A DNA stretch of 64,000 nucleotides, from contig JAHRHZ010000144.1 of NCBI GenBank assembly GCA_024137785.1, positions 19,092,317-19,156,316 on the forward strand. The letters are read 5' to 3'. This DNA comes from Ginglymostoma cirratum (taxonomy: Eukaryota). A program made the position numbers and the translations under genes. The notes beneath the pieces are model-generated. The model was not told the origin of the DNA, searched no databases, and saw only the letters and a list, made by a program, of their open reading frames with translations. Position 1 is the first letter of the stretch. Every line of letters starts with the position of its first letter. This document shows, piece by piece, positions 24,561 to 50,950 of this stretch.

Positions 24561-25121
24561 TGCAGTTAGTTGTCTTTCATTCCATGCTGGTTACGTGTCA
24601 CAAAATATATTGGTTCTAATACTGATTGACTGCACAGCCTCTTTGTGTCGCTCACTTAAGAGATAAGCGACAATTGTAAACCGATGCATAACAACACTGG
24701 ACTGAGCTAGAGCAAGTTGTGAGGCCTCATTGTAAAATTTATTGTGAAGTTTTAAAGGTATAAATTTAATTCCAGAATTCACAATTCAGTTAAAGCTCCT
24801 TGTTCTTCTTGAACAAATGCTGATTGCAACCTCAACACTCAATATTTCTTCAGCAAAAGACTTGCGACAACTGGTTATGTTGCCCCTTTAAATTAGACAC
24901 TGCAAGTTTTATTACCAGACTCTTCTATTACCAGATATATAACTTTGCATCCAGCACTAGTATTATAACGGACAATCATCTAAAATTAGGATACAATTTT
25001 CAAGAAAAAAAATGTCATGCTGTCAATTTAAAGTTGTATTTGTTTTCCGAATCAATCTTTGGATTTTAAGGATTTCTATCAAATCTCTCATTTTTATGGA
25101 AGTGGTATTCACATCACATAC

Positions 25122-25450
25122 CTGGCCTCCTCTTGGTTGATGCTTTAGGTTGTCAATTGATCCAATCTTGGATTTGATATTTTTCAGATCTGGCATTGGT
25201 TGGTTGATCACTCGGAGTTGCTTTGGAGTAAGGGGAGATTTTGGAGGAGTGCGGATAATTGCCACTTTCCGTTCTGTGGGCACAAGGATGGGAGATTTGT
25301 GTGTACCAGGAGTGCCAGGAGTGCGGGGAGTCCTGCTGCCTGGTGTACGGGAATAGCTGGGTGGTGTGCCAGGTGTGACTGCAGTTGATCCAGGAGTGGA
25401 GGGTGTCGCAGTACCACTTCTTGCTGACCTGGTGCGAGTTGGTTCAGACC
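25122..25450 (-). CDS. MAP2: MAP2 proline-rich region plus microtubule-binding repeat 1 (329 bp)
   Basis: tttaaag|GGTCTG...GGCCAG|gtatgt; [45 protein letters not shown]. Confidence 0.97.
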
Positions 25451-26841
25451 CTTTAAATACATATACATAAAGCATATATATTTATACATAAAGAAATAGC
25501 TGAGCCTTTATACATATCTCAATACACAAATATTAATCCAGCATATATGAAATATAGAAAGGATAACATATTAATACATATAGTGCAACACAATTTATTT
25601 TGGAACAGTGACCAACCATTCAAAGAAGCATTTTATACCTCTAATACATAGCCTGACATCATAAAAAATAATGGAAAAACCATATTCTCAAGACTGTCTT
25701 TGGACATTCATTATTGGTCTATAAGATATTTACTTATTAAATTATGAAAAGGTCACTTCAAGTCTGTTCACCCTTGTGCAGATTTGAACTTTTATTATAC
25801 ATCTAGTCATGGTTCTGAATGTTTCACTTAAGTTATATCAAGTGTGTCATGCATGAAATAGTTGATAAATTTTACAAAGAGTTCAGTAGGCACGAAGCCA
25901 CTATTGACTAGGCTACCTGCACTAGTATGTGCTCGCGATCTGGTCACTCCTTGGCCCTTTTGATCGTTTCTAGGTTCAGTCCTTATAGCTATAATGGGGC
26001 AGAGGTGAAACACAGAGAATGGATAAGGACATTTGAGGCAAGTTAAGAGGAACAAAAAAAAACTGACTTTCAAAATATTTTAATAATGATTTTTATGCTT
26101 GCAATATAAGTAGCATGTGCTATTTGCCATTAATTTTACCACTTAAGTAATAAATAATCAAAAAACTGCTAAAATATAACTATAACTGCTTTGTTGGTTA
26201 ATCCAACTTAACCATCAATTAAGTTTTTGGAATTAGTGCCATAGTTTAAATAATTAATTGGAGAGATAAGTTAAATTTTAATACACAGCAATAGAAGCAT
26301 ATTGAATCAGCTCTGTAAAACGTATTAATTGCCATTTTGACCCTAATGAAATAGATACCTTCAATATCAATTAACTGTAAATTAGAGAAAGTCAAATTAA
26401 TGTGCTTTGGTCCTGTGGTACTACTTTGTCCTCCTTGAGCTATGAAAATCCAAATATTTAAGCAACCTTCAATAAATATGAATATTTTATACATATGTAT
26501 TTGTTGCCATGGCTCGATTTGAATTAAACATATTTAAAGATGCTCTGGGGGCACAGAGAGTGAAACATTACATTTGCGATGTTTCTTAGATCATGCAAAT
26601 AAATATCACTGTTCGCTGTTTTCCTTTGCGCTAATTATCTACATTGAGTTGTGTCGAAAATAGATATTTTTCTTGTTCAGACTCTCAATCTTGTTGATCT
26701 AGGTCTAAAGTGTGCATGCAGAAAAAGCAGTAAACTGTTATGGTTTTCCTCCAGAACACTTAATATTTTGTGCATTGAAAACACTACTGCAGGGCACATT
26801 GTAATCTTAAGGATAATTAAGAAAAGACGACAAAAACTAAC

Positions 26842-26989
26842 TTGTTGGTCGTTTCGGTGCCGGATAAACTGGGCTTGTAGCAGGAATAAAATGTGCATCT
26901 TTTTCTTCAGGTGGAGCCCGGCGGGTGGATAGAATTGAAGAAGGTCGGGGTAGGGCAGAGCGCTTCTCTGGACTCCTCATTGCAGCATC
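26842..26989 (-). CDS. MAP2: MAP2 exon (148 bp, DAAMRSPEKRSALPRPSSILSTRR...; exon 14 equivalent), with a candidate upstream acceptor at 27056
   Basis: ctctctgcag|GATGCT...CCAACAA|gttagt, phase 0-1; SPEKRSxLPRPSSIL motif. Confidence 0.93.
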
Positions 26990-28041
26990 CTGCAGAGAGC
27001 AAACTGTGTTATTACCATCTAAATCCTGTGTATGTGCTTCTTTCCAGAGCAGTGACCTGAAAAAGGGAAAAAAATTCCATGCATTTGCAAGTCAATTGTA
27101 GAATTATTCAACTGAAGAAAAATTGCCTATTCAAGTTATTCTCCGAGAATAAATTATTCCTCAAATTGCACATTCTCCTTCAAACCTCGCATGTAATATA
27201 TTGAGATTTCAAGATGTTATCAGCCCTCTCAGTTCCAGCTAGTTCAAAACACACTAAGGAGGAACTAGTGAATTCCACAGTAGTGAATTTCTGAAAGTTT
27301 GCATATTCACAAGGATCTGAATCAAAGAAAGTAAGAGGAACAGACTTCTGTTTAGTGCCATGCAGTGCTATCAGGATTCTTAAATAATTTTGCAGATAGT
27401 TTCCTGTTAGTTCAGCAGAGATTACAGATATTCATATCATATACATATGGCAACTTATTTTACTGTAGTTCTTGAAACACGTTGAATCTTCCACTTTAAA
27501 CAAAACGCCTTCAGCAAAATTTCAACAAAATTAAAACCATTAAGATATTTAAAATATTAAAATATTAAAAATGTGTATATTTTAAAAGAAAAAAAAACCT
27601 ATTTTCGACCAAGAATCATTATTAATCAGTTTATTGATGTAATCAACACAAATTCAGATCTCTCTGCCCTCTTCCTTGTTCAGAGATTTGCAAATAACAT
27701 ATTTTCAAGCAACTGCTACTACAGGCTACTGATTGTTTTACCAAAATATCTTTTGAAAAATCTGCTGTAAAGTATCCCTAGTTTCAGAATAACATTGAAA
27801 ACCTCATGGTGCAGAAGGGGCTATTTGGCCTGGCATGCATAAGACAACTGAAAGAGTTATTTGGCATAATCTTATCTTCCAGCTTGATCTAGAGCCACAC
27901 AGGTTATACCAACTTCATTGCATAGTCAAGTTAAAAAATATGAGGTTTTCTGCCTTTGCCACCCTTTCAGGCAGTGGGTTTCAGATTCGCACCACTCTTT
28001 GGAGTGGAATAAAGGATCACAACACATCTAACTCTTCCACC

Positions 28042-28717
28042 AGAGATAAAAGGTACTGCAGATGCTGGAGAATCCGAGATAACAAGCATGGGGCTGGATG
28101 AACACAGCAGGTCAAGCAGCATCATAGGAGCAGGAAAACTTGACGTTTCAGGCCTAAACCCTTCATCAGAAATGGGGGAGGGGAAGAGGGTTCTGAANNN
28201 NNNNNNNNNNNNNNNNNNNNNNNNNNNNNNNNNNNNNNNNNNNNNNNNNNNNNNNNNNNNNNNNNNNNNNNNNNNNNNNNNNNNNNNNNNNNNNNNNNNN
28301 NNNNNNNNNNNNNNNNNNNNNNNNNNNNNNNNNNNNNNNNNNNNNNNNNNNNNNNNNNNNNNNNNNNNNNNNNNNNNNNNNNNNNNNNNNNNNNNNNNNN
28401 NNNNNNNNNNNNNNNNNNNNNNNNNNNNNNNNNNNNNNNNNNNNNNNNNNNNNNNNNNNNNNNNNNNNNNNNNNNNNNNNNNNNNNNNNNNNNNNNNNNN
28501 NNNNNNNNNNNNNNNNNNNNNNNNNNNNNNNNNNNNNNNNNNNNNNNNNNNNNNNNNNNNNNNNNNNNNNNNNNNNNNNNNNNNNNNNNNNNNNNNNGCT
28601 TGACGTTTCGGGCCTAGACCCTTCATCAGAAATCCTGAAGGGTCTAGGCCCGAAACGTTAAGCTTTCCTGCTCCTATGATGCTACTTGGCCTGCTGTGTT
28701 CATCCAGCTCCACACCT
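28042..28717. mobile_element. Penelope-like element ends (direct and inverted copies) around an assembly gap
   Basis: gctggatgaacacagcagg...cccttcatcagaaat before and partly after the gap; inverted copy 28635-28717. Confidence 0.7.
28198..28597. other. Assembly gap (400 N)
   Basis: Run of N. Confidence 1.
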
Positions 28718-33569: not shown

Positions 33570-36040
33570 TGTACAAACTTATGAAATGGAAGTGATAGAC
33601 AATACAGTCCCTCAAACCAGCTCCATTGTTCAATACAATCATGACTGATTGCTGCGCAATTCCATTTTCACATTCTGCTCCCAATAACCCTTTGTTCCCG
33701 GAAAAATCAGTTTGTCTCAACTTTAAACATATTCAATGGTGGAGCTTCTACAACTCTTATCGAAAATTCAAAAGACACAACCCTTTGAGTGAAGAAATCC
33801 TCCTCATATTAGCCCTATGGGATCAGGCTCCCAACCTGAGTCTATGTCCCAGATTCCCCACTTGGGGAAATGGCACACAACTTTCTACTTTTGTCAAGCT
33901 TCTTTACAATCTTCTGTGCTTCAGTGAGATCACTTCCCATTCTTTGAAATTCCAGAGAGCAGAGACTCTATTCACTCAGCCTGGCGTCATACATCAATAC
34001 TCATATCCCAGTAATCAATTGAGTGAAGCCTCATAGTACCACCTTCAATACAAATAAAGCCTTCCTTAAATATAGAGACCAAAACTGCATATTGTATTCC
34101 AGACGTGATCTCACCAAAGCTCTGCAAAATTATATTTGCCACTTTGTTGTATGGTGTGCCTGTGTGCTAATTTTCCGTATTCCTTGACAGCACACCCAAG
34201 TCTCTCTGAACATCAGCATTTAGTAGTGTTAGAAGTGTTTAAAAACGTTAAATCTTTTTAAATGTTCTGATTTTCTGATCATACTACTGAAACAAAATAA
34301 CTTAATTTCCCATATTATATCCAACTGTCAATTTGTTGTCCATTCATTACACTTGTTCATATTTCATTGCAACTTTGTGTACTCACAGCTTCTATACCTA
34401 TTGAGCTTCACAAGGTCAGCAAACATTAACACAATGGATCTGTCTCTTCTTTTAAATCATTAATATAGATTGTAAATAGCTGAGGAACAAGCACATGCCA
34501 CACTTCATGAGTTACAGCCTGTCAACCCGAAAATGCTGTTGTTCCCTATTCTCTACTTCCTGCCCCTTAAAGAGTCCTTATTCAATGCTAAGCTGAGCAA
34601 GTGGTGCAATGTAGGCATGTCGGGCTTGTAATACACAGGTCAATGCATTACAGAATATATGAACTGATTCATTTTGACAGAAGGAATATAGAATATGAAC
34701 TGAATGGCATTTTTCCAAAGAGCGTGCAAGGACAGAGAGACATCCTGGGGATTCAGCTGCAGGTGGCAAGATCTTATGAGAAAGTAGTGAATAAATTAGA
34801 TGGGTTCTTGGGCTCCATGGAGGTACTGAGTACAAGAAAAGGGAGTTTTCCCTAAACCTGCAGCAAGCTCTGGTTAGGCCACAATGCAAGTATTGCATCC
34901 GGTTCTGCTCATCACATTTTTGGAAGAGTGTGAGAGCCCTCAAAGGAACAGAGGACATTTACTATATTGCTTCCAGTAACGAAAAAATCTAGCTACAAGA
35001 TTAGGTTGGAATAGTTGTGTTTGTTCTCCTTGGAGCAATAACGATGGATAGGAGATTTGATTGAGGTGTACAAGACTACAATAAGTTTAGACCAGGAGGG
35101 GCACCCATTTGGACAATGAGGAGATGAGTTGGAATGGATCAGAACCTTGTAAGTGTTTGCAGGTTGGTGGTTGTGGTGGTGGTGGGGGGGGGAGGGGGAG
35201 AAGAGGGAGGGGTGGAATTAGCAGTAGTGTTACACCTTGAGATTTTCTCCAATGGACATAGATAGCCAGTTAAGTCAGGATGCTCACTGCACACCTCAGC
35301 AAACTATGCAAGGGTACCTGATGGTCTAGGCACTTAGCCTCGGCCCCTCGTGCTGCCAGGTAAATGGCAGCAGCAGGATGGCATCTTTAAATGGGCAATA
35401 CATTGTGGGTACCCAAACCTCCCACCCACCACTGGTATAACTGCGGTGGTGGGAAGGTGCTGACAGGTCACCTGCTAGATTAAACATGCCCACTCACCTT
35501 CAAATTGTTGGCAGGATGCATCAAACTCAGTCAAATATTTCTGATAGACTATGCTCAAAGCTTTGTGTTCTTGTCTTGTATATTAACATTTTGTATAGCA
35601 CTTTTTTTGAATGCCTTTGGAAAATCCAGGTGAATTCCCCTTTAGCTACTTCTTAATTGCACTCTCAAACCTCAAATATGTGAAACTCCATTTCTAATGT
35701 GAAATCACGCTGACTTTGTCTAATCAAAATATGACTTTTAATTTGTTAACACTGTCCGATTAACTGGTCTGTAATTATCTATTTTGTCTCTCCTCCATTC
35801 TTGAATAGTGGTGTTACATTTGCAAACTTTAAACTCACTGCTACCATTCTAGATTGGAGAGAATTTTGGGAAATCATGACTTGTACAACCATTATCATTG
35901 CAGCTAACTCTTAAAACTTTAGAGTGATGGCTGTCAAGTCCTGGTCATTTTGTGGCTGTTAGCTCCTTACGTTTCTCCAATGCATCTTCTCTGTTGATGT
36001 TACTTAACTGAAGCTGCTATCTCTTACTAGTTCCAATATA
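33570..36040 (-). mobile_element. Decayed CR1 LINE with a nested plus-strand CR1 piece (about 34580-35095) and an unclassified insert (about 35205-35535)
   Basis: CR1 tail and RT similarity on both strands (IHFDRRN, LVRPQ). Confidence 0.55.
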
Positions 36041-36091
36041 CCTCAAGAAAGCAGCAAGAAAGACCAAAGTAAATGGAAAACATCAACTGTA

Positions 36092-39000
36092 AGACGGGCG
36101 TGCACAAATTTGGTTAGCAAGTAGATGCTGCTAGGGTCTCCCTGTGACCCAGCTTGTGTGGTTGCCACTGCAGCGTTTTTACGTAGCTTGTCCCCTGCAC
36201 TGTTTGGTCGAACCTCACGTGGCTCCTCCCTGGTAACGACAGTGGACGAGAGTACCTTTGTCTTATCTGGCTGGTAGACCTACCTACTGGCTACCTGAAC
36301 GGGGCTAGTACGGTGGGTCCCTCGGTCAGAGGTACAGGTCTTACTCGATCCTCTGCCGGTGATTACGACCAGAGAAAAATTGTCGAACCCGCGTGGGGCA
36401 ATGCGCTGCGCTTTAGTGGTGCCATTAAAGAAATAGTACGGTTGACACTAGTCTTCCTATATCTGGTTGGGCCGGTGACCGGATTAAAAAACTGCCCCAC
36501 AAGTTTGCTAGTGGTGGTAGCTTGCGCAAAGCGTAGTAGCCACAACAAGATTAGGACATCAGTCTCAACAGACGGACAGTTTGAGGCCCATTGTTTCTCA
36601 CCCTGTTTTTGTCCCCAGTTTCAAGCTAACGGGGTCAGAAGGTAGGGGAGATGATGAGAAGGATCTAGCTGTAGAGACAGCCAATGCCTTAGCTCAATCT
36701 TTTGGTGAGATTACAACACAAGTTTTCTACAACAGTAATTTTAGAAATATGGGCAACAAAGTATCAGAGCGTGGAGATACATCTGGTAATTTTAAGGTCA
36801 TCAAACCACCCAAGATGGAATGTAGAATGGAGGTAATACTTCAGTATCCTGTTGACATGTTCTTTTATGATAAGTGTCAGCTTACATGTCCCACAATGGG
36901 GGCATTTCGTTTGCATGTTAAGAAAGTACATGGTGTTAAAGTAATTCGGACAAGTTGCGTGAAGAGTGGAAGATGTGTTGAATATCGTTCTATAGCCTGC
37001 CATTATCTGAAATGTAAAGGTGACAGTAAAAGAGATGTTAACGTGGTTTTTTGAATGTTCAATGTGAAAGTTAAAATTTAGTACGAGGATTGACTGGGGA
37101 CAACATGAAAGACATAAATATGCGGGGTTAAGGAATCAGAAATGGATAGAAAATAGTAGGATGAAGAAAGAGGAGACAAATATAGGTAGAAGAGAGGGGA
37201 TTTGGTCAGGAGAAGAGATTAAATTGTTGATGCCGTTGGAAGAAGTATATAAAGTAGATAAACAAATTAATAAAAAGATAGTGAGCATGATAAATTCTAA
37301 GACACCAAAACAAATTTCTGATAAGCAGAGTTCTTCTTCAGAATAGGGGTAAGGGAAAGGAGGTAATTGTGTCCGGGGATTCACAGGAAGATGTAGGGAC
37401 TGATGGTAAGGATATGTTAGATCAGAGATATGTACAAGGGACACAGGGTAGAGTTGACTCTCGGGAGTTAACAAAGTACACTACTGAGGAATTGTTGGAT
37501 AAAGCAGAGGAATAGCTTAGTGCTAAAGAGGATCAGGAAGTTTTTAAACTTGGCTGATTCCATTACAGGGAGATTATTGAGGGGGGAGGGGAAGGAGCGG
37601 GCTGGTAATAATAGTGATGAAAGTAATAGATCTAGAAGAGAGGACGGTGACCAGCAAGAAAATAATAGAGTGAAACGAAAAGGAAATGGGGCCCAAAGAT
37701 AGTTTGCAAAAAGGAAATCAAACTTCCGTGCAAGCCAGGTGTTATTCAAGACAAATAGGCAACAGCTTGCAAGGGAATTGATGGGAGTGCCTCCCAGTTG
37801 TTTATGCCCCCTTAAGTAAGGGAGAATTGTTTTTAGTATTTGAGGAGAAACTTTCTGTATCTTATGATAAGGCAAATATTACTAGATTTGTACCCTACAG
37901 GGGCGACAGACAATTTAATTGTCTGATGGACTCGGTTGGTAGCGGAGAGGTAGAGGTGGCTATTGGGGAGGCAGACTCGAAAACGGCTGCAGGTCCTGAT
38001 GGGTGGGGATTGAGAGACGTTCAAGAGATCCATCAGAAGGACGTCACTTGTCTCTCACTTTTGTTTACCATATGGATCAGGACAGGTATGATCCCAGATG
38101 TTTTGAAGATTAGTAGGATAGTGTTATTACTAAAGTTGGACAACACAAAGTTTGAAAGACATCGACAACTGGCGACCTATTACCATTGGTCCTATTCTGC
38201 TACGCATCTTCACTCGAATTTTGGCGAGGAGGCTTAGTAGAGTACTGAAATTAAATCAGAAGCAAAAAGGCTTCCTGATAGGATCATCGGAATGTAATGA
38301 GAATACAGTGATCCTTCAGAATATCATAAAGGGAGCAAAGAAGCTGGAGGGGATTTGGCCGTTGTCTTTGTCGATGTGGCGAAAGCGTTCGACTCAGTAG
38401 GGCATAAATTGCTTTCCAGGGTGTTAGAAAGAGTGCGCCTATCGAAGGACTTCATTAGAATGATTATGAATTTCTATACGAATGATTCGACCGTGGTGGA
38501 AGGAAATAGATATAAAATGGACCCTACGGAAGTAAGACGTGGTGTTAAACAAGGGAATCCTTCATCTCCTAAATTGTTTAACATTGCCATGGATCCTTTG
38601 ATAGGCACGTTGGAGGAAACTGAATCGGGAATAATGATGGATCTAGAGGGAGAGCCTATCCATTGTAAGGTGTTGGCATTCACGGATGACATAGCACTCT
38701 TATGTGGATCTCACCTCGGGATGATTAAGAATTTGAAGACCGTACAATGTTTCTGTGATTACACTGGTTGCATGATTAATGTTAAGACCACCAAAGGTTC
38801 CTACTTTGAATGCAAAGGTAGGACATTTTTATACAATCGTTTAAAGGAATGGAAGTTCCGGGGGTGGCTGGGGAGCAGGGTGCGTTGTTCAATATATTAC
38901 CCTGGGTGAGCTAGAAAAGCATATAGGTGTGCCAGTCAATCCGTGGACAGGAATACGACTGGCCGAATGGGAGAAAATGCTTAAGGAATGTGCAGAAAAT

Positions 39001-40638
39001 CTGAGAAGATCAGCTCTTTGACCGATGCAGAAAGTCAAAATTTTTCGAACTTACTTTATCCCCAGATTACACTATCATTTGGTTCTGGCCGAGACGTCTC
39101 AAAATATTTTGTGTCGTTTGGACTCTTTTATCTGAGGTTTTATTAAAGAGATTTTAAATCTACCTTGTTATATATCAAATGGGGTATTATATGCTCATAG
39201 TAGGGACGGTGGTTTAGGGATTCCACATTTGGAGGTCAGGTCCTGATTGCCATTTTGAAAAAAAAAAAACGGCACTGGAAACGTTGGATAGATGAGGCCA
39301 TTCGTGCATCGTTTCGGTTTTGTGGGGAAAGGAATGTGAATGCGATCGTGGAACTAACAAAACTGAAAGTCATGCAAGAAATTTGGTCACCAGGACAGGT
39401 GGGTATGGAGCTCGAGAAAGATATGGGGGCTAAGGAAAAAAAGAGAGTTGGTAACTCGGCTGAACTTGAATTATAATGATTGGAGGGGGATAGAATGGCT
39501 TAGGTAGATGGCCTCACACTGCCAAGGATTAGGCATGCACTACTTTAGAAATGATAAGAAATTAAATGCATGGATCAAAATGGCAACGATCATGAAAACA
39601 TCGAAGGTAATTAATACCTTGCTGGTGCAACGTAATATATATCCAACTACAACAACGATAACTCGCGGAAGACCTCTCTGTATTCAAACATGCCGGAGAT
39701 GTGATGCAACATTACAGACACTCCCGCATATTTCTGGGTGGTGTCCAGCTGTGAAAAATGCATGAATTAAAAGGCATAGTAAGATTATGGAGAGATTATA
39801 TCAATTCATGGGGAATTTCGGTGGGAAAACTTTGGTGGAACTTCGGCTAAAGGACGAAGCAGGAAATTGTGGAAACCGGATCTGATTTTCCAGAAAGATT
39901 TGGTGGTTGTTGTGGTCGATGTAACAGTGAGATTTGGAAAAGGCTTGAGTTGAGAAGACGGCCAAGTATAGGCACCTGTCGGATGGAATTAGAGAATTAA
40001 TGAATTTCTTTAATTCATTATTAAAAAAATAATAATTTCTTTTTATTATTTTATGGTTTTGTAATGGGTGCAAAAGGCAAATGGGCGACAACAAATATTA
40101 AGTTAACGGAAAGTCTTGGAATTCGGAGGCTTCAGTCTTTTGCCTAAGACCTATCTAGGTTAAATGCCTCCAACTCTGAAACTGTTGCAAATCTCCAGTG
40201 ACTGCTGAGAGAGTTGATGGACTCCAATAGCTCTGATATAATTTTAATGCTTGCACATTTTATATTGTTTTAATGGTTTTAGAATTCAATTATACGTATA
40301 TTTTAGACCTTAGTATATTTTGTTTTCTTTAAATCTTTTAGAATTTTATATTGCGTTTTAATTAATAAAGTTGTTTAGTTTTAGTCACTTGTAAGGGTGT
40401 TTTCGTAATAAATTTTCACACAGGCACATCAGATGACGTTATCAGGGTTTATATGCTAATCAACAGGTTGTGTAACCCCGCTCACAGTTCCTGCATATGG
40501 TGTTCTGCTGTATAACAGGAAGACCCATTCCCTTTTTGTAAGATCTAGCTAGTTTAGCTATATATCGGGTTTTAATGGCACGTCGACAAGCGACATTAAA
40601 ACTCGGAAAGGGCACTGTCTTTTTACAGTGTTTTTAAT
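36092..40638 (+). mobile_element. Decayed near full-length R2-clade non-LTR retrotransposon with R2-A-like domain order, antisense in a MAP2 intron
   Basis: Zinc-finger remnants (KCQLTCPTMGAFRLHVKKVH; CVKSGR..IACHYLKC; ECSM..FSTRI..GQHERHK), Myb WSGEEIKLL..KTPKQISDK, RT motifs AAGPDG, WRPITI, FVDVAKAFDSV, GVKQGNPSSP, AFTDD, GGLGIP, then CRRC..LPHISGWC, RH, KPDL, VVVDVTV; many stops and frameshifts. Confidence 0.9.
36096..36280 (+). ncRNA. Degenerate HDV-like ribozyme at the 5' end of the R2-like element
   Basis: P2 GGTCGA (36206) / TAGACC (36275); P3-L3 ACC-TCACGT-GGC; P1 GGGCGTG / TCCTCCC; TGGTAAC junction; P4 GACGAG / CTTTGTC. Confidence 0.6.
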
Positions 40639-40644
40639 ACTGTA

Positions 40645-44340: not shown

Positions 44341-44610
44341 CTGTTAGAGGAAAAACAAAAGCAAATATTATGAGGACAGGAACAATGCGGTAGGTCAGGT
44401 GGAATGATCAATATCCACTTTTAATTTAAGAAATTAACAGGAAGAATTTAGGAAATTAGATATTACGACTTCTTGTTATTGTTTATTGTTATCTAAAATT
44501 TCTACAGTCAAATTTCTCAGCAAACATAACATTATTACATGGGCACAGTACAACCACCTCACGTCACAAAAATGCAACAAGAAAACATAAAATGCTTCGT
44601 TTGTATGAAC

Positions 44611-44814
44611 CTTTTCTCCTTTTCTTGTCTTCTTTGGAGACTGTACTGATATCTTTTTTAATTATTTTTCTCTCAGGTGTGGAAACTCTGTTTTTCCCAG
44701 TTTTTAACACCTTGCCTTTCCTATGTTTGTCTGAAGACAGGCTGATGAATTCCTTCTCTGCCTTTTCCTGTTTAGTAACAGCAGCTGGTTGTGTTACAAT
44801 GATACTCTCTTCAT
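44611..44814 (-). CDS. MAP2: MAP2 exon (204 bp, DEESII...RVSTPERK...KKRRK; exon 10 equivalent)
   Basis: ttctgcag|ATGAAG...GAGAAAAG|gttcat, phase 1-1; similar to mammalian EKAEKE..KHRK..RISTPERK. Confidence 0.92.
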
Positions 44815-45003
44815 CTGCAGAATTAAAGTGCAAGAAATCACTAATAGCAACAGGGCTCAAATACAGGAAAAAGAAAATTCAAGTTCCTTTTTAAAAATTA
44901 AGTAACATTAAATAATATAATGTAGTACAATATTTATTTATTTTACTTTTAAGAGATTTTATAATTTAGTCATAGCTGATAGCTATTAAGGCTTTATAGG
45001 CAC

Positions 45004-48000
45004 CTTGAGTATCCATCCAGAGGCTGTCTGTATCCATTATGGATTCATCAATGCTCTCGTCCTCTTTCAAGTCTGTAGGGATTTCAATTTTTTCCGGGAT
45101 CAGTGCAATTTGGACAGCTTTTGCAGGTGACTCATAAATCTGTCCTTCTGTTGACCGGGTTTGTTCACTAGGGGCAAGAACATCCTCAACATCACCATCA
45201 TCGGGCATGGCAAACCTCACATTATGACCTACGTCCTTTCCTCCTTCTAGTGTGGTCTGCACAACTGTAATGATGTCATCTTCTACTGTAATGACAGATT
45301 CCACAATTCCCCTCTCCTCTTCAGTTTCTTCTACGAGGATGTTTTCAGATACTTCATAGTCACCGGGATCTTCATGTAGAACAATTTCTGGCACAGGAAC
45401 GTCAAATAACAAATTGGACTTAACTTCCTCTTTAATGGTTTTCTGGGCTTCAGCTGGTTCTTGCACTGGAACAGCTTCAAGGACTTGCTGACCACCGGAT
45501 TCTGCTTTGGAAACTTCACTTGGTGCAGGTCCAGTTTTGCTTTCCATGGTTTCCTCAGTTGTGGCTATTACGCACTCAGCAACAATGTTGGATAAACCGG
45601 GCATCACAACATCTTTCACTCCCTTCTCAGTTTGAATAATTCCTTGCACAGGAGGGGATTTTTCAATTACTTTGTGATCATAATGCATAATTTCTACATC
45701 ACCACTTGGTGCAATATTGTTACAGGGAAGACAGGGCTTGGTATCGAGCTTCCTAATATTATTAGGTTGAATTGTTTCTGGAGCAGGGCCAACCTTCTCA
45801 GTTACCTGAACAATTTGCTCTATTTCAAAACCTACTTCAGGTACTGTATCCTCACTAGGCATAGTAGGCTCAGTGGAAACTATCATCGTTTCTGAAAGTG
45901 GACTGAATTCTTGTATAGGAGCAGTTTTCTCAGATATATTTTGACCAGCAGCCTCCAGTTTTACACTGGTTTCCAATATGTCAGCCTTAGTGAGTGGACT
46001 AGATTTGGATTCCACAGTCTCTTGAAGTTGAGGAGGCTCTTGAGTAGATGCAGTTTTCTCAGGCCCTTTCTGAGAAACGGATTCTGCCACAATCTCCTCA
46101 GTGGGCAATTTGGGCCTGGATTCATCATCTGGGATATTCTTAGGTTGAACAGAGTCTTGAGTCGGAGTAATTTGCTTGAAAATTGTGTGATCTATGCTGT
46201 CTACTTCTATATCCACATCCAGCACATTATCCTGCCTGGGCAAAGTAGGCCTGGGCTTATCTTCCAAGGCTTTCTTGGGTCGAGCTTGTTCTTGAACCGA
46301 GACACTTTTCTCAGACGGTTGGTGATCGGTAGTTTTACGTTTGAAACTCCCTTGTGGCACAGTAACGTCGCTGGGCAAAATATGCCTTGGTTCATCTTCC
46401 ATGGTTAATTGAAGATGTTCCTGAGGAGAAGCTTTCTCAGACGGTTTGTTTTCAATAAATCCTGTTTTCAAAGGTGTTTCCAATACTGCAACATTGCTAG
46501 GTAGATCAGACAAATCGTTAGATTTATCGGCATTTTCGGTTTTATCATCTGGAAACTCAATTGGAGAAATGTCTTTTGGAACTTTCTGAGTGTCAATGAT
46601 AATGGATATATTTTGAGTGCTAGATTCTCTCTGAGCAGGGTCATCAGGTAAATGATCTGGTTCAGTCACTAACTTGGCAACTTGGTTTGAAACACTTAAC
46701 GAAACCGTTTCATCAGTCTTGACTTCGGACTGTGCTTCCAAAATAGTAGCAATTTTTAATTCCCTGTCTTCTGATAAGGTACTAATTCTAAAATGGGAAT
46801 CTTCTTTCTGCTTATTTACATCTATTTGCCTTCTAATACTTTCCTCATCTATAGTCTGAGAAGCAGCACGGATTTGATGAAGGAAAATGCTGCCATCCTC
46901 CAGCGGACTTTTAACTTCCTCAGGAGTTGGTAAGGGAGCAGAGTATTCAAAAACACAGTAGCCCATTTCCTCTGCTTGATTAACATTTTTAATAATCGAT
47001 TTGATGCTTTCAGTTAAAGCCTCTGAGCCAGAAGCTACATTTTCAGTGGCAGATTCGCAGGGCATGGATGCTCTTCGAACAATTTCGATTTCTGTACCTT
47101 CTGAGCTCAGTCTCGTTCTAGTAACTCCTAAATCCAACATTTCAGGCAGGTCAGGAACCACAACAGTGTCATTTTTGTAATCATCTTTCAAAGTACGAGG
47201 GTAAGCATATTGAGAGTCTAATTGCAGGCATTCTGCGGCTGATTTCTCTTCAGCAACAGATACAGTTTTATCCTTTTCCACTTCAACAGGAAAATAAATT
47301 TGCTTCTCCTCAGCAGGTGTTGTTACTGGAAAGAACTCTGCTGACTCCTCTAAACTCATCCCTCTTGTACAGGCTAGAATATCAGAAGCCAAGGGAGACA
47401 GAGATTCTGGGGGACCTTGGCTCTCTGTTTCCACCTCCAGTGCTATTGAATCCAAAGACGCTGCAGGTAAATTCAACACCAGCTTTTGTAGTTCTTTATC
47501 AATATTTGCATCAGCACTAGAATTGGTTTGTTGAGATATTGCTGAGGGGCGCTCCTCTTTGGCCAAATGGCTTAGCTGAATAGGTAAAGGAGTTTCATTG
47601 GATTTAGCTTCAACAGGCAACACTTTAGCCTGTACATCAACAGGCGACGCATTAGCCTGTACATCAACAGGCACAGATGTCTGCGCAAGTGTGCTATAAT
47701 GAATTCCTTCGGCTGATACATCATTTTCAACTTTGTGGACATCCACTTCCGATTTTTCATGTGGGCCCTTCGAGAATTGTGGCACCACATGAGGAAGTCT
47801 TGAATTGTTTTCTTCTGTAATGGTCATTTCATAATAACCATCTTCAGGTGGTTTGGTACCATTTTTCCCATCATCTTTCAGAACAAATGTTTCAAAATAT
47901 TTTGACATTTCTGGTTGATCCTCCTCGATCTTGACTTTTGAGCCCACGTTAAAGGAGCCATATTGTTTATTTTGCACCGTTAGACTAGTGAAGCTTTGGG

Positions 48001-49446
48001 AATTTTTATCAGAATAAACATTTGAATCCGATAATGGGTTCACATTTTGTGGTTCCGTTTCTTTCTCTTTACCTTTCTCTTGTTGAATGCTTTTTTCTTC
48101 CGTTTTCATAGGTGTATCACCAACTTTTTTGATATTTGAATCCATGCTACACGGCTCTTGTTTCATCCTCTCAAGCACGGAGTCTTGACTTAAAAGGGCA
48201 TCACTAGTAATGGGATGCATGCCACATTGTACATTTAGATTAGATTCCTCCACATACGACTGGGCAGTCACAGCATCAGGCAACTGATAAACCTCTGCTA
48301 CCTCAAGGTTGGCTTCAATTTCTTTAAATAGAAGATTAGTTGGTTGTTGTTCAGACACATGTTTAGAGTATCCAGTTTGTAATAACTCTGTCGTACTGTA
48401 CATTGTCTCTACTGTTGCTTTTCCATTCAAATGTTCTAAATGATGTTCTGCAGCATCTGTAGAGCTGTATTCAACGCATTCTGACCTGTCCTCTGGCATT
48501 GAAAATACATCCGCTATATTTTCAACCAGCTTTATTGTATCTGGTGTATCTTTTCTTATATCACTAGAACCTTCTAAAGCTACAGGTTTGTCTTCAAGTG
48601 CACTGTGCGCAATTACAGGTAATTTGTCTATATGCAATTCCTCATGTACTTGTGGCTTTTCCTGGAGCACGTTTTGCACTCTGCTTTCAGGGACTGAAGT
48701 GTTGGTTGCGGCCAAGTCTATTTTTGCCTTTAGAGGAGGTAACACGTAATTATCGTCTGCTACTGTTACGCCTGTAAGCGATTGCCCTTTTAGCGAAGCA
48801 CTTTCACTGTCCTTCAGTGAATCTTTTGCAGAAGCTATTTCAATATTTGGGGAAATAGCCTTTTGTTTACAGATATCTGTATCTGAAATCCCTGTACTGG
48901 GCTGTTTTGATGAATCTGGAGTTTCAAAACTATCAAGAGATTTTTCACTTTGAACTGGAACAGATTTGCCAGGCAGTGCTTCTGCCAGAGTGTTTTGTGG
49001 TTTCATGATTTCATCTGTTTTCTTGGCAGAACCTGATTGCATATGGATAGCTTTACTCTCTGCTGCCACCACGGAGATGCATTCATCTTCACAAAGACTG
49101 GACTGCAGTGAATTTGCACGATGGCTAGTTGCGGTTTCAACACTCAAAGCCACTAAGTCTTCTCGACGTGGCTCAGTCTTGAATGAAACAGGAACAGGTT
49201 CTGTTTGCAAAACAGCTGAAGTTAAATCCTGCTTCTTGGAATCGGCTTCCTCTGCTGTTTGGATGACGTCATCATTATATTTTTCCAGTGTCGATAAAGG
49301 TGGCAGGTCAGATTTTTGCTGTTCAGGAATATTCTTATCTTTGAACTCTGTCACTGACACTTCTTGCAACGACAATCTTTCTCCACAAGTAACAGAGGAT
49401 TCTCCACTTGTTGACACCTTGTCCATCTTCGTGGCTGTAAGCAAAT
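45004..49446 (-). CDS. MAP2: MAP2 large projection-domain exon (4443 bp; exon 9 equivalent)
   Basis: Within ORF 44966..49465; actttag|AT TTG CTT (DLLTATKM) to SLWMDTQ G|gtgcct; conserved MAP2 blocks MSKYFET, LSPLASDIL, PDLPEMLDL, EEMGYCVF, EDDIITVVQTT, VRFA, DESIMDTDSLWMDTQ. Confidence 0.96.
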
Positions 49447-50950
49447 CTAAAGTAGTTTGTTGCATGCATATAGTTAACTGTTACTAATAGGGAAAACCAT
49501 TCCATTTCATATATTCCTACCCCCAGTCAAAAGGGTGTGTGTTGAATAAAAATGAGAAGTGCAAATTTGTTCAACTCTGCAGCAAAACATTCAGCATTGG
49601 TGAAAACAGACTGAATACAGTATTGGGCCTAAACTGTTCCTAAGCTGCAACTGATTCTCAGACTTGCTTAGTTATACTTAAAAGAAAACCACATTTTTAA
49701 GATAAGTTAGCAATACATTAATTCAGAAGAAAAGATACACAAACCAACCGCTAAAACTTCTAAAATTTAAAATTCCGTGTTATTTTATTCTGTAAGATGA
49801 AAACAAAACTATGTTGTATGTTGATCAGTGATTTATCTCAAGAATAGAAAGTGTGTTTGTTTCTCTATTTATCTTTCCAGATGCATCTCTTTGCTTTCTT
49901 AGAAAGTGGATGAATACATGTAATGAAGCTTTTTTGACTTTCCCTCATTGTCTTTCTTTTTAAAATATGTGTGTATGTGGCTGTCTTATACTCTACGTTG
50001 TTTGTCATATTTCTATTACTGACGGATTTTTTTGTGTGAGATTGTCTCCTTAGCTCCATTTCCTTTTTTAAAACCTCCTCTCTATACCACTTATAATTTT
50101 GTTTTAATTTTATAATCAGTTTTTCATCTCTTTGGGAGACGCAGATGCATTATAATTCTAGTCAGATAAATTCTTTGGTGTCTTCCTTGACAAAGAAAGG
50201 ATGTGGGTTATGGAGTTCAAGGGCAGAAGAGAAGGTATGCAGGGTTGTACTTCTACACCAGGATATATACTCTATCATCATCATGCTTGCCACGCAAGTC
50301 TTTATATAACTAAAGACATTATCCTCAAAATAATTTTAGCACAATCCTATTTCCACAATCCTCCAACTGTACACTTAATTTAAAAAAAAAAGCTTCTCAC
50401 TAACACCATTTTCATTCTTAACCAGCTGATCATCTTAAAAACAGAAGTGATTAATTAATGGTAAGCACTTGCCATAGCCCGAATAAAATAATAAATGCAA
50501 GATGCCAGCACCAAAACACGAAGCAAAACAATCTCTTTTCAAAATAATCCCAGAGATAAGCTTAAAAATACAGAAATGCAACTTAAAAAAAGCTTCGAAT
50601 CATGAATAAGTCTACGAATTAGAAAGCAAGTGAATCAACTCTAAAATAATTAATACACATTAGCAATGTAGCTGGCAAACATTTAGGCAATGAAAAGCCT
50701 GTGCTTTTTAAAAAATAAAATCAACTTGGTTGCAAAGCGTGTGACATCATGGAAACAAAATAACTCAAAATGTTAGGAGGAGTGGTGGGAAATTATTGTT
50801 GCTTCTGTCGCCAGCATCAGTCAGCTAAAAGCAATTTATGCCCAACGATTAAATTATCCTGAAAGCAACATATCTACCAGTAAACACTTGGAAGTGATAC
50901 AATACTCAAAAGGCATTTCTTATTTTGTGGAAGTTAGCAGGAAGACACAC

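What the first reader, a model, noticed from the sequence alone, without database searches (positions are those of the whole stretch)
36092..40638. R2-A-type retrotransposon outside rDNA, in a MAP2 intron
Seen: 4.5 kb with remnants, in order, of three zinc fingers (about 36866-36931, 36956-37016, 37056-37122; CCHH/CCHC/CCHH-like), a Myb domain (37200-37330), an RT, a CCHC knuckle (39691-39744), RH and a PD..D restriction-like endonuclease. The 28S target (AAGG/TAGCCAAATGCC) is absent at both junctions. Known: this domain order defines R2-A elements, which normally insert at one site in 28S rDNA; a few R2 lineages that changed or lost specificity are known. Inference: this is a shark R2 lineage with altered or relaxed targeting. 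That would be of interest because vertebrate R2-A proteins are used for site-specific transgene insertion. This copy is dead, but a consensus could be rebuilt. I cannot check whether the family is already catalogued.
Basis: partly seen in the sequence, partly recalled or inferred. Interest (0 to 1): 0.85.

Follow-up and report, generated by a model that had tools for sequence, protein, structure and literature searches.

The report
Dead off-target shark R2 copy
This is a broken copy of R2, a jumping gene that normally inserts only in ribosomal RNA genes, lying in a MAP2 intron; its many scattered relatives carry ribosomal-gene remnants or sit at look-alikes of the normal target, so it is most likely a rare mis-insertion by an ordinary R2 rather than a retargeted family.

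Summary
The anatomy is real: a decayed three-zinc-finger/Myb/RT/restriction-like-endonuclease R2 (36134-40637, + strand), antisense in a MAP2 intron, with no 28S at either junction. The reading 'lineage with altered or relaxed targeting' is not supported. It nests in a shark lineage-A R2 group that includes the published, 28S-flanked R2-1_CPu. About 70 dispersed relics were retrieved from this genome. Many betray an rDNA source: 28S tails starting exactly at TAGCC, 28S on both sides, or 5' ends starting near 28S position -28, the ribozyme cut. Untailed copies favour TAGC at the 3' junction (7 of 27; null 0.2). Six relics end at one nucleotide of an abundant LINE whose empty copies mimic the 28S target. 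A second, unrelated R2 lineage here leaks in the same way. Best explanation: long-retained off-target insertions from rDNA-resident masters. Left open (about 12%): the youngest subfamily, to which this copy belongs, carries its own ribozyme leader and has only one short 28S-tailed member, so it might have copied itself outside rDNA. The scan noted similar shark R2 strays on other DNA; the LINE hot spot was not found in my literature searches.

The parts
36134..40637 (+). Decayed R2 lineage-A element, lacking only the first ~30 nt of the family's 5' end; no target-site duplication
36134..36276 (+). Remnant of HDV-like ribozyme (P3/L3 core 36211-36222, P1 3' strand about 36223-36231); the P1 5' strand is missing, so it is predicted inactive
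36462..40225 (+). Broken ORF (8 stops, about 15 frameshifts against P0004)
36866..36931 (+). ZnF3 remnant (CCHH type)
36956..37015 (+). ZnF2 remnant (CCHC type)
37056..37122 (+). ZnF1 remnant (CCHH type)
37200..37328 (+). Myb domain remnant
38325..38804 (+). RT core (Pfam RVT_1; catalytic motif FTDD at 38679-38690)
39691..39744 (+). CCHC zinc knuckle
39772..39932 (+). RH motif and PD..D restriction-like endonuclease core (frameshifted)
40229..40637 (+). 3' UTR with the family's conserved terminal motif
40638..40642 (+). 3' flank TACTG: only 2 of 5 letters match the 28S target TAGCC
35654..36000 (.). Old host LINE remnant upstream of the element
44966..49480 (-). MAP2 large exon (projection domain)
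44567..44878 (-). Open stretch holding the MAP2-like exon upstream (in gene sense) of the host intron
   Evidence: found with recalled MAP2 peptide motifs
26840..27091 (-). Open stretch holding the MAP2-like exon downstream of the host intron
   Evidence: found with recalled MAP2 peptide motifs
25023..25481 (-). MAP2 exon with tubulin-binding repeat

Best explanation
The element is a dead copy of a shark lineage-A R2 that most likely came from a master copy inside a 28S rRNA gene and was mis-inserted into a MAP2 intron. Shown: domain set, decay, place in the shark R2-A group, and 28S remnants on many sister copies at the exact canonical site. Inferred: master copies were co-transcribed with pre-rRNA and released by their HDV-like ribozyme; the R2 protein now and then primed reverse transcription at non-rDNA sites, helped by pairing of the RNA's short 28S tail (TAGC) with the cut strand and by look-alikes of the target, including one site in an abundant LINE; such strays escape the turnover of the rDNA array and stay for very long, so they outnumber on-target copies in an assembly that holds almost no rDNA. 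This copy lost its first ~30 nt on insertion and matches the target by only 2 letters, so it probably used a weak site or an existing break.
For: (1) 7 of the 8 genomic matches to the 28S sequence downstream of the R2 site are directly preceded by an R2 3' part; the eighth is the intact rDNA unit. (2) 11 of the 12 matches to the upstream 28S sequence are followed by an R2 5' end, 9 of them at non-rDNA places starting about 22-34 nt before the site, as expected from ribozyme cleavage at -28 (PMC3774820). More leader-bearing copies. (3) 28S-associated copies are spread through the tree (4 changes for 6 tailed rows of 28), and a 58-bp 3' end with a 36-nt 28S tail (L147) matches L044, inside the window's own clade, at 54 of 58 letters. 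(4) The intact, 28S-flanked R2-1_CPu nests among the dispersed copies (98 SH-aLRT; exclusion rejected, p-AU 0.033) and has the same drifted, element-internal leader. (5) 3' junctions of 27 untailed copies: TAGC 7 of 27 (null mean 0.21, maximum 3 in 20000 draws), mean 2.96 of 5 against 2.02, the signature of engineered R2 off-targets (PMC11371274, PMC12222951). (6) L039 sits in CTTAAGA|TAGCC with a 50-bp duplication. (7) Six relics end at one nucleotide of a LINE whose 29 empty copies match the 28S target by commonest letter at 20 of 33 positions; three keep both LINE flanks and start with the 28S leader. (8) A second R2 lineage leaks likewise (L144, L148, L202-L206). (9) No shared non-28S 3' flank other than that LINE site among 27 copies.
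Against: The 12-copy clade that holds the window (100/100) has no member with a long 28S tail or upstream 28S; the link to rDNA there rests on the 58-bp L147 and on look-alike sites. Its leader is element-internal, so it no longer reports an rDNA source. R2-1_CPu is not sister to this clade (p-AU 0.040). No intact on-target copy was seen: the only rDNA unit found is empty. The window's own junction matches the target poorly (2 of 5). Tailed and leader-bearing copies were partly found by searching with 28S motifs, so their share is inflated. 4 of the 27 junctions in the TAGC test are the LINE site.
Confidence: 0.82

Rival explanations
1. The youngest subfamily (window, L009, L010, L011-L015, L038, L039, L044, L149) relaxed its targeting and copied itself from dispersed loci: its ribozyme no longer needs upstream 28S, so read-through transcripts of host genes could release full-length RNA.
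For: 12-copy clade without long 28S tails; leader drifted from 28S and P1 partner changed to match; several near full-length copies; no on-target copy in the assembly.
Against: L147 (28S tail) belongs to this clade by its 3' end; L039 is at a target look-alike; 9 of 10 intact ends are followed by T and 7 by TA; R2-1_CPu has the same internal leader yet sits in 28S; DNA searches return only 6-12 relatives each; no non-rDNA transductions.
Confidence: 0.12
2. The copies were moved passively: R2-28S co-transcripts reverse-transcribed by another LINE, or pieces of rDNA displaced as DNA, with no role for R2's own nuclease.
For: Some relics have 28S on both sides (L112, L144, L145, L206) or tails up to about 1 kb; the window's junction has little target likeness.
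Against: No poly(A) or simple-repeat tails and a clear duplication in only 1 of 27; most copies end at the exact R2 3' end; repeated use of one 28S look-alike nucleotide in a LINE needs R2-type recognition. It may still explain the few both-sided pieces.
Confidence: 0.06

Closest known systems
R2-1_CPu and R2-1_CPl, bamboo-shark lineage-A R2 (Hassan et al. 2026, PMC13188248, Table S2)
   Same: Same domain set; protein P0004 starts with the R2-1_CPu ORF sequence and aligns over its length (44% identity); same style of 5' end and ribozyme core by eye; nests in the same radiation.
   Different: Those are flanked by 28S on both sides and R2-1_CPu has an intact ORF; this copy is dead, intronic, and belongs to a later-branching subfamily.
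Vertebrate R2-A proteins with solved structures (PDB 9nl2, 9nl3, 9dou R2Tg)
   Same: Best structural-database hits; three ZnF + Myb + RT + RLE; their engineered off-targets show the same 4-5 nt downstream match (PMC11371274, PMC12222951).
   Different: More distant (separate vertebrate branch); use a 28S-derived leader, whereas this subfamily's leader is element-internal.
R2NS-1_SMed and R2NS-1_CSi, non-specific R2 of flatworms (Kojima et al. 2016, PMC5035012)
   Same: R2 copies outside rDNA.
   Different: Those are D and C clade, with copies over 98% identical to consensus and no 28S link; here copies are 65-92% alike and repeatedly tied to the canonical site. The closer parallel is oyster R2NS-1_CGi, renamed R2-1_CGi once a 28S-adjacent copy was found.
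Extra-rDNA R2 and R1 copies of Drosophila (Stage and Eickbush 2009, PMC2718515)
   Same: Dead-end strays; R1 strays carry upstream 28S leaders or short 28S tails and often sit in repeats.
   Different: Here far more numerous and older, spanning many successive subfamilies.

Membership tests
R2 lineage A | Three N-terminal zinc fingers (CCHH, CCHC, CCHH) plus Myb | tested here: met
   each window finger has lost a ligand, sister copies L039 and L015 keep all
R2 lineage A | Single ORF with RT, CCHC knuckle and PD..D restriction-like endonuclease | tested here: met
R2 lineage A | RT groups with vertebrate lineage-A R2 | tested here: met
   shark clade (100 SH-aLRT) within the vertebrate group; no R8, R9, NeSL, R4 or HERO rows were available for the tree
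R2 lineage A | Family inserts at the canonical 28S site | tested here: met
   sister copies with 28S starting at TAGCC or ending at the site; not met by the window copy itself
R2 lineage A | 5' HDV-like ribozyme | tested here: inconclusive
   P1, two J1/2 hairpins, P3, P1.1 and P2 can be drawn; 81% of cells paired, 5 pairs with changes on both sides, 11 of 500 shuffles as high (8 related rows, structure derived from one of them); P4 and J4/2 not resolved; no Rfam match; cleavage untested
R2 lineage A | Co-folded ZnF3:2 pair | not tested
   no structure prediction run
Non-specific R2 (R2NS type) | No association with 28S at any copy | tested here: not met
Non-specific R2 (R2NS type) | Young, near-identical dispersed copies | tested here: not met
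   closest pair 92%; most 65-83%
Retargeted R2 (R8/R9 type) | One new shared target replacing the R2 site | tested here: not met
   6 relics share a LINE site, but it mimics the canonical target and its users carry 28S leaders; other flanks are unrelated

The most novel reading that the evidence does not exclude
After internalising the 28S-derived arm of its ribozyme, the youngest shark R2-A subfamily became independent of rDNA and copied itself from dispersed loci such as introns, cut out of host read-through transcripts, with only a 2-4 nt target preference: the first vertebrate R2 to leave the rDNA, and a natural relaxed-specificity R2-A protein.
Probability: 0.12. Interest if true: 0.72.

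Novelty: new member of a known kind. Interest (0 to 1): 0.36.

Why it matters
As a retargeted R2 it does not hold up. What remains useful is the family record: about 70 germline off-target insertions of a vertebrate R2-A lineage, showing in nature the junction bias seen for engineered R2 gene-insertion tools, a recurrent near-cognate site in a high-copy LINE (a warning that repeats can supply off-target hot spots), and a graded series from 28S-derived to element-internal ribozyme leader that fits the route proposed in PMC3774820 (Fig. 8). It also illustrates the caution in PMC13580325 that extant locations can mislead about specificity.

Tried and rejected
Rfam scan of the element: nothing above gathering score. 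Whole-strand fold z-score of a 5' end was not significant (z -0.69; pseudoknots are not modelled). My first idea, that the drifted 28S-like leader proves long residence outside rDNA, was dropped because R2-1_CPu has it inside 28S. Target-site duplication at the window: none at 7 or more letters beside the 5' end; a 6-letter ACTGTA match near 36087 was seen by eye and treated as chance. Rebuilding the window's empty site failed: the upstream LINE remnant does not continue in the 3' flank. The first protein tree used P0004 as ruler and put it basal; re-anchored on the turtle protein it nested inside; the careful mixture-model tree did not finish. Rows dropped: 7 copies with too few residues, 3 more had no tblastn hit; 30 of 70 loci gave no 3'-end hit; the anchor picker mis-registered 2 of 27 test rows and 2 of 6 tailed controls. 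Sequencing runs: no RNA holder listed; contigs of 4 runs laid on L039 gave low-depth pieces of dispersed copies and no 28S junction, uninformative because human-like records are filtered out. Scan notes for this genome: none. Literature searches found no paper on dispersed shark R2 copies or a LINE-borne R2 look-alike site; Repbase, Dfam and non-open journals could not be searched, and Table S2 cells were cut at 400 characters.

Full report
Observation. Translation and tblastn against full-length R2 proteins show, in order, three zinc-finger remnants, Myb, RT, CCHC knuckle, RH and PD..D. The RT scores best against solved R2 proteins (E 2e-27 to 1e-18) and far less against LINE-1. The ORF has 8 stops and about 15 frameshifts. 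MAP2 exons lie on the minus strand on both sides, so the element is antisense in an intron. No 28S lies at either junction.

Family. DNA and protein searches of the own genome gave dispersed relatives on many contigs; 70 loci including the window were examined, 67 with a tblastn hit to P0004 and 3 by DNA only. These are lower bounds (150 of 13672 candidates scored). Of 60 copies placed in a protein tree, 58 form a ladder of subfamilies in one shark clade within vertebrate lineage A, and 2 (L144, L148) belong to a second R2 lineage. The closest named proteins are from bamboo shark and catshark; the host was not identified further. P0004 begins with the ORF listed as R2-1_CPu, which is 28S-flanked on both sides (PMC13188248 Table S2). 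With the turtle protein as ruler it nests among the dispersed copies; trees that exclude it, or make it sister to the youngest clade, are both marginally rejected (p-AU 0.033 and 0.040).

Where the masters lived. The assembly gave one rDNA unit, empty at the R2 site. Of 8 matches to the downstream 28S sequence, 7 follow an R2 3' part, with 36 to about 1000 nt of decayed 28S starting exactly at TAGCC; L040, L112, L045 and L126 add tails of about 18-103 nt. Of 12 matches to the upstream 28S sequence, 11 precede an R2 5' end: 2 with long upstream 28S and 9 starting about 22-34 nt before the site in unrelated DNA. That is the piece left by ribozyme cleavage at -28 (PMC3774820, passages read). Five of these 11 are the second lineage, so dispersal is not special to one lineage. 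Tailed copies need 4 changes on the DNA tree. In the window's own 12-copy clade no long tail occurs, but the 58-bp L147 with a 36-nt tail matches L044 at 54 of 58 letters, next best 48. These copies were partly found with 28S motifs, so their share cannot be read as a rate.

How the strays were made. In 27 untailed copies with intact ends, TAGC follows the end in 7 and TAG in 9 (null means 0.21 and 1.07; none of 20000 draws reached either), and the match fades after about 4 letters. Engineered avian R2 off-targets (0.1-1% of junctions) show the same short downstream match (PMC11371274, PMC12222951, passages read). Duplications are absent except 50 bp at L039, whose site reads CTTAAGA|TAGCC, and a doubtful 16 bp at L123; tails end without poly(A). 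An all-against-all test of the 27 flanks found one shared flank: L110, L120, L124, L155, plus L139 and L211, end at the same nucleotide of a LINE with APE endonuclease and RT (the label CR1-type is recalled, not from a call). In 29 empty copies the commonest letter equals the 28S target at 20 of 33 positions from -28 to +5, including -10, -9, -7, -6, -4 to +4 and the T at -20 that PMC12222951 found most conserved in R2Tg off-targets. L120, L139 and L211 keep both LINE flanks and begin with the 28S leader: RNA cut from pre-rRNA, inserted at a look-alike. The window copy matches only TA and lacks the first ~30 nt, so its own site is among the weakest.

Ribozyme. Older copies start with true 28S letters; L123 has a tandem duplicate of that leader; younger ones have a drifted leader still similar to 28S -28..-1 (shuffle p 0 to 0.04 in 5 of 6 intact 5' ends) whose G-run pairs with a changed P1 partner. 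This fits the internal-P1 route of PMC3774820 Fig. 8 (inference). It would let such an RNA free itself from any transcript, which is why the rival is not excluded; but R2-1_CPu has this leader inside 28S.

Age. The window's end branch is 0.11 substitutions per site; with the low rates recalled for sharks this means tens of millions of years or more (recalled, not computed). Some 70 copies over the whole ladder is a slow leak, not a generalist expansion (inference).

Comparison with print. PMC13188248 (abstract, sections 5, 11, 14, passages, the 15 Chondrichthyes rows of supplementary file 7, cut at 400 characters) lists shark R2s, nearly all 28S-flanked, and does not discuss dispersed copies in what I read. 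PMC5035012 (parts 1-3 of 5) describes non-specific R2 only in flatworms. PMC2718515 (passages) reports extra-rDNA R2 in 5 Drosophila species. PMC13580325 (passages, section 7) warns that extant locations can mislead. Searches found no report of the LINE site. The scan's own notes from other genomes describe similar shark strays; they were read after my analysis and are not evidence.

Verdict. A real but ordinary object, a dead off-target copy of a known kind of element (0.82); relaxed youngest subfamily 0.12; passive movement 0.06. The family-level record has moderate value for R2 specialists.

Noticed in passing
L110:6346, L120:6540, L124:5791, L139:6019, L155:6647 (element-sense coordinates), L211:2232: Six R2 relics inserted at the same nucleotide of an abundant APE-RT LINE whose empty copies mimic the 28S R2 target; a natural off-target hot spot.
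   Followed up: yes
L144, L148, L202-L206: A second R2 lineage (5' end resembling R2-2_STig by eye) with dispersed copies starting at 28S position about -28 or carrying 28S tails.
   Followed up: partly
L009 (G000:C36, about 1307500-1309290), L045, L211: Internally deleted copies that keep both ends (SIDE-like); L009 is the window's nearest relative (81% over 759 columns).
   Followed up: partly
L208:1470-1520 (same locus as L123): Tandem duplication of the 28S leader at an R2 5' end, the intermediate proposed for moving the ribozyme cut inside the element.
   Followed up: partly
L039 (G000:C77): Least decayed copy seen (3 stops, 3 frameshifts against P0004), with a 50-bp target duplication at a 28S look-alike.
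   Followed up: yes
window 28198-28597: 400-base run of N flanked by repeat-like sequence, in the same MAP2 intron.
   Followed up: no
window 44966-49480 (minus strand): MAP2 projection-domain exon is an open frame of about 1500 codons.
   Followed up: partly
P0002, P0003, P0005, P0090: R2 relatives annotated as genes on large catshark and bamboo-shark contigs (0.25-1.9 Mb), hinting that dispersed R2 copies are common in sharks; flanks not seen.
   Followed up: no
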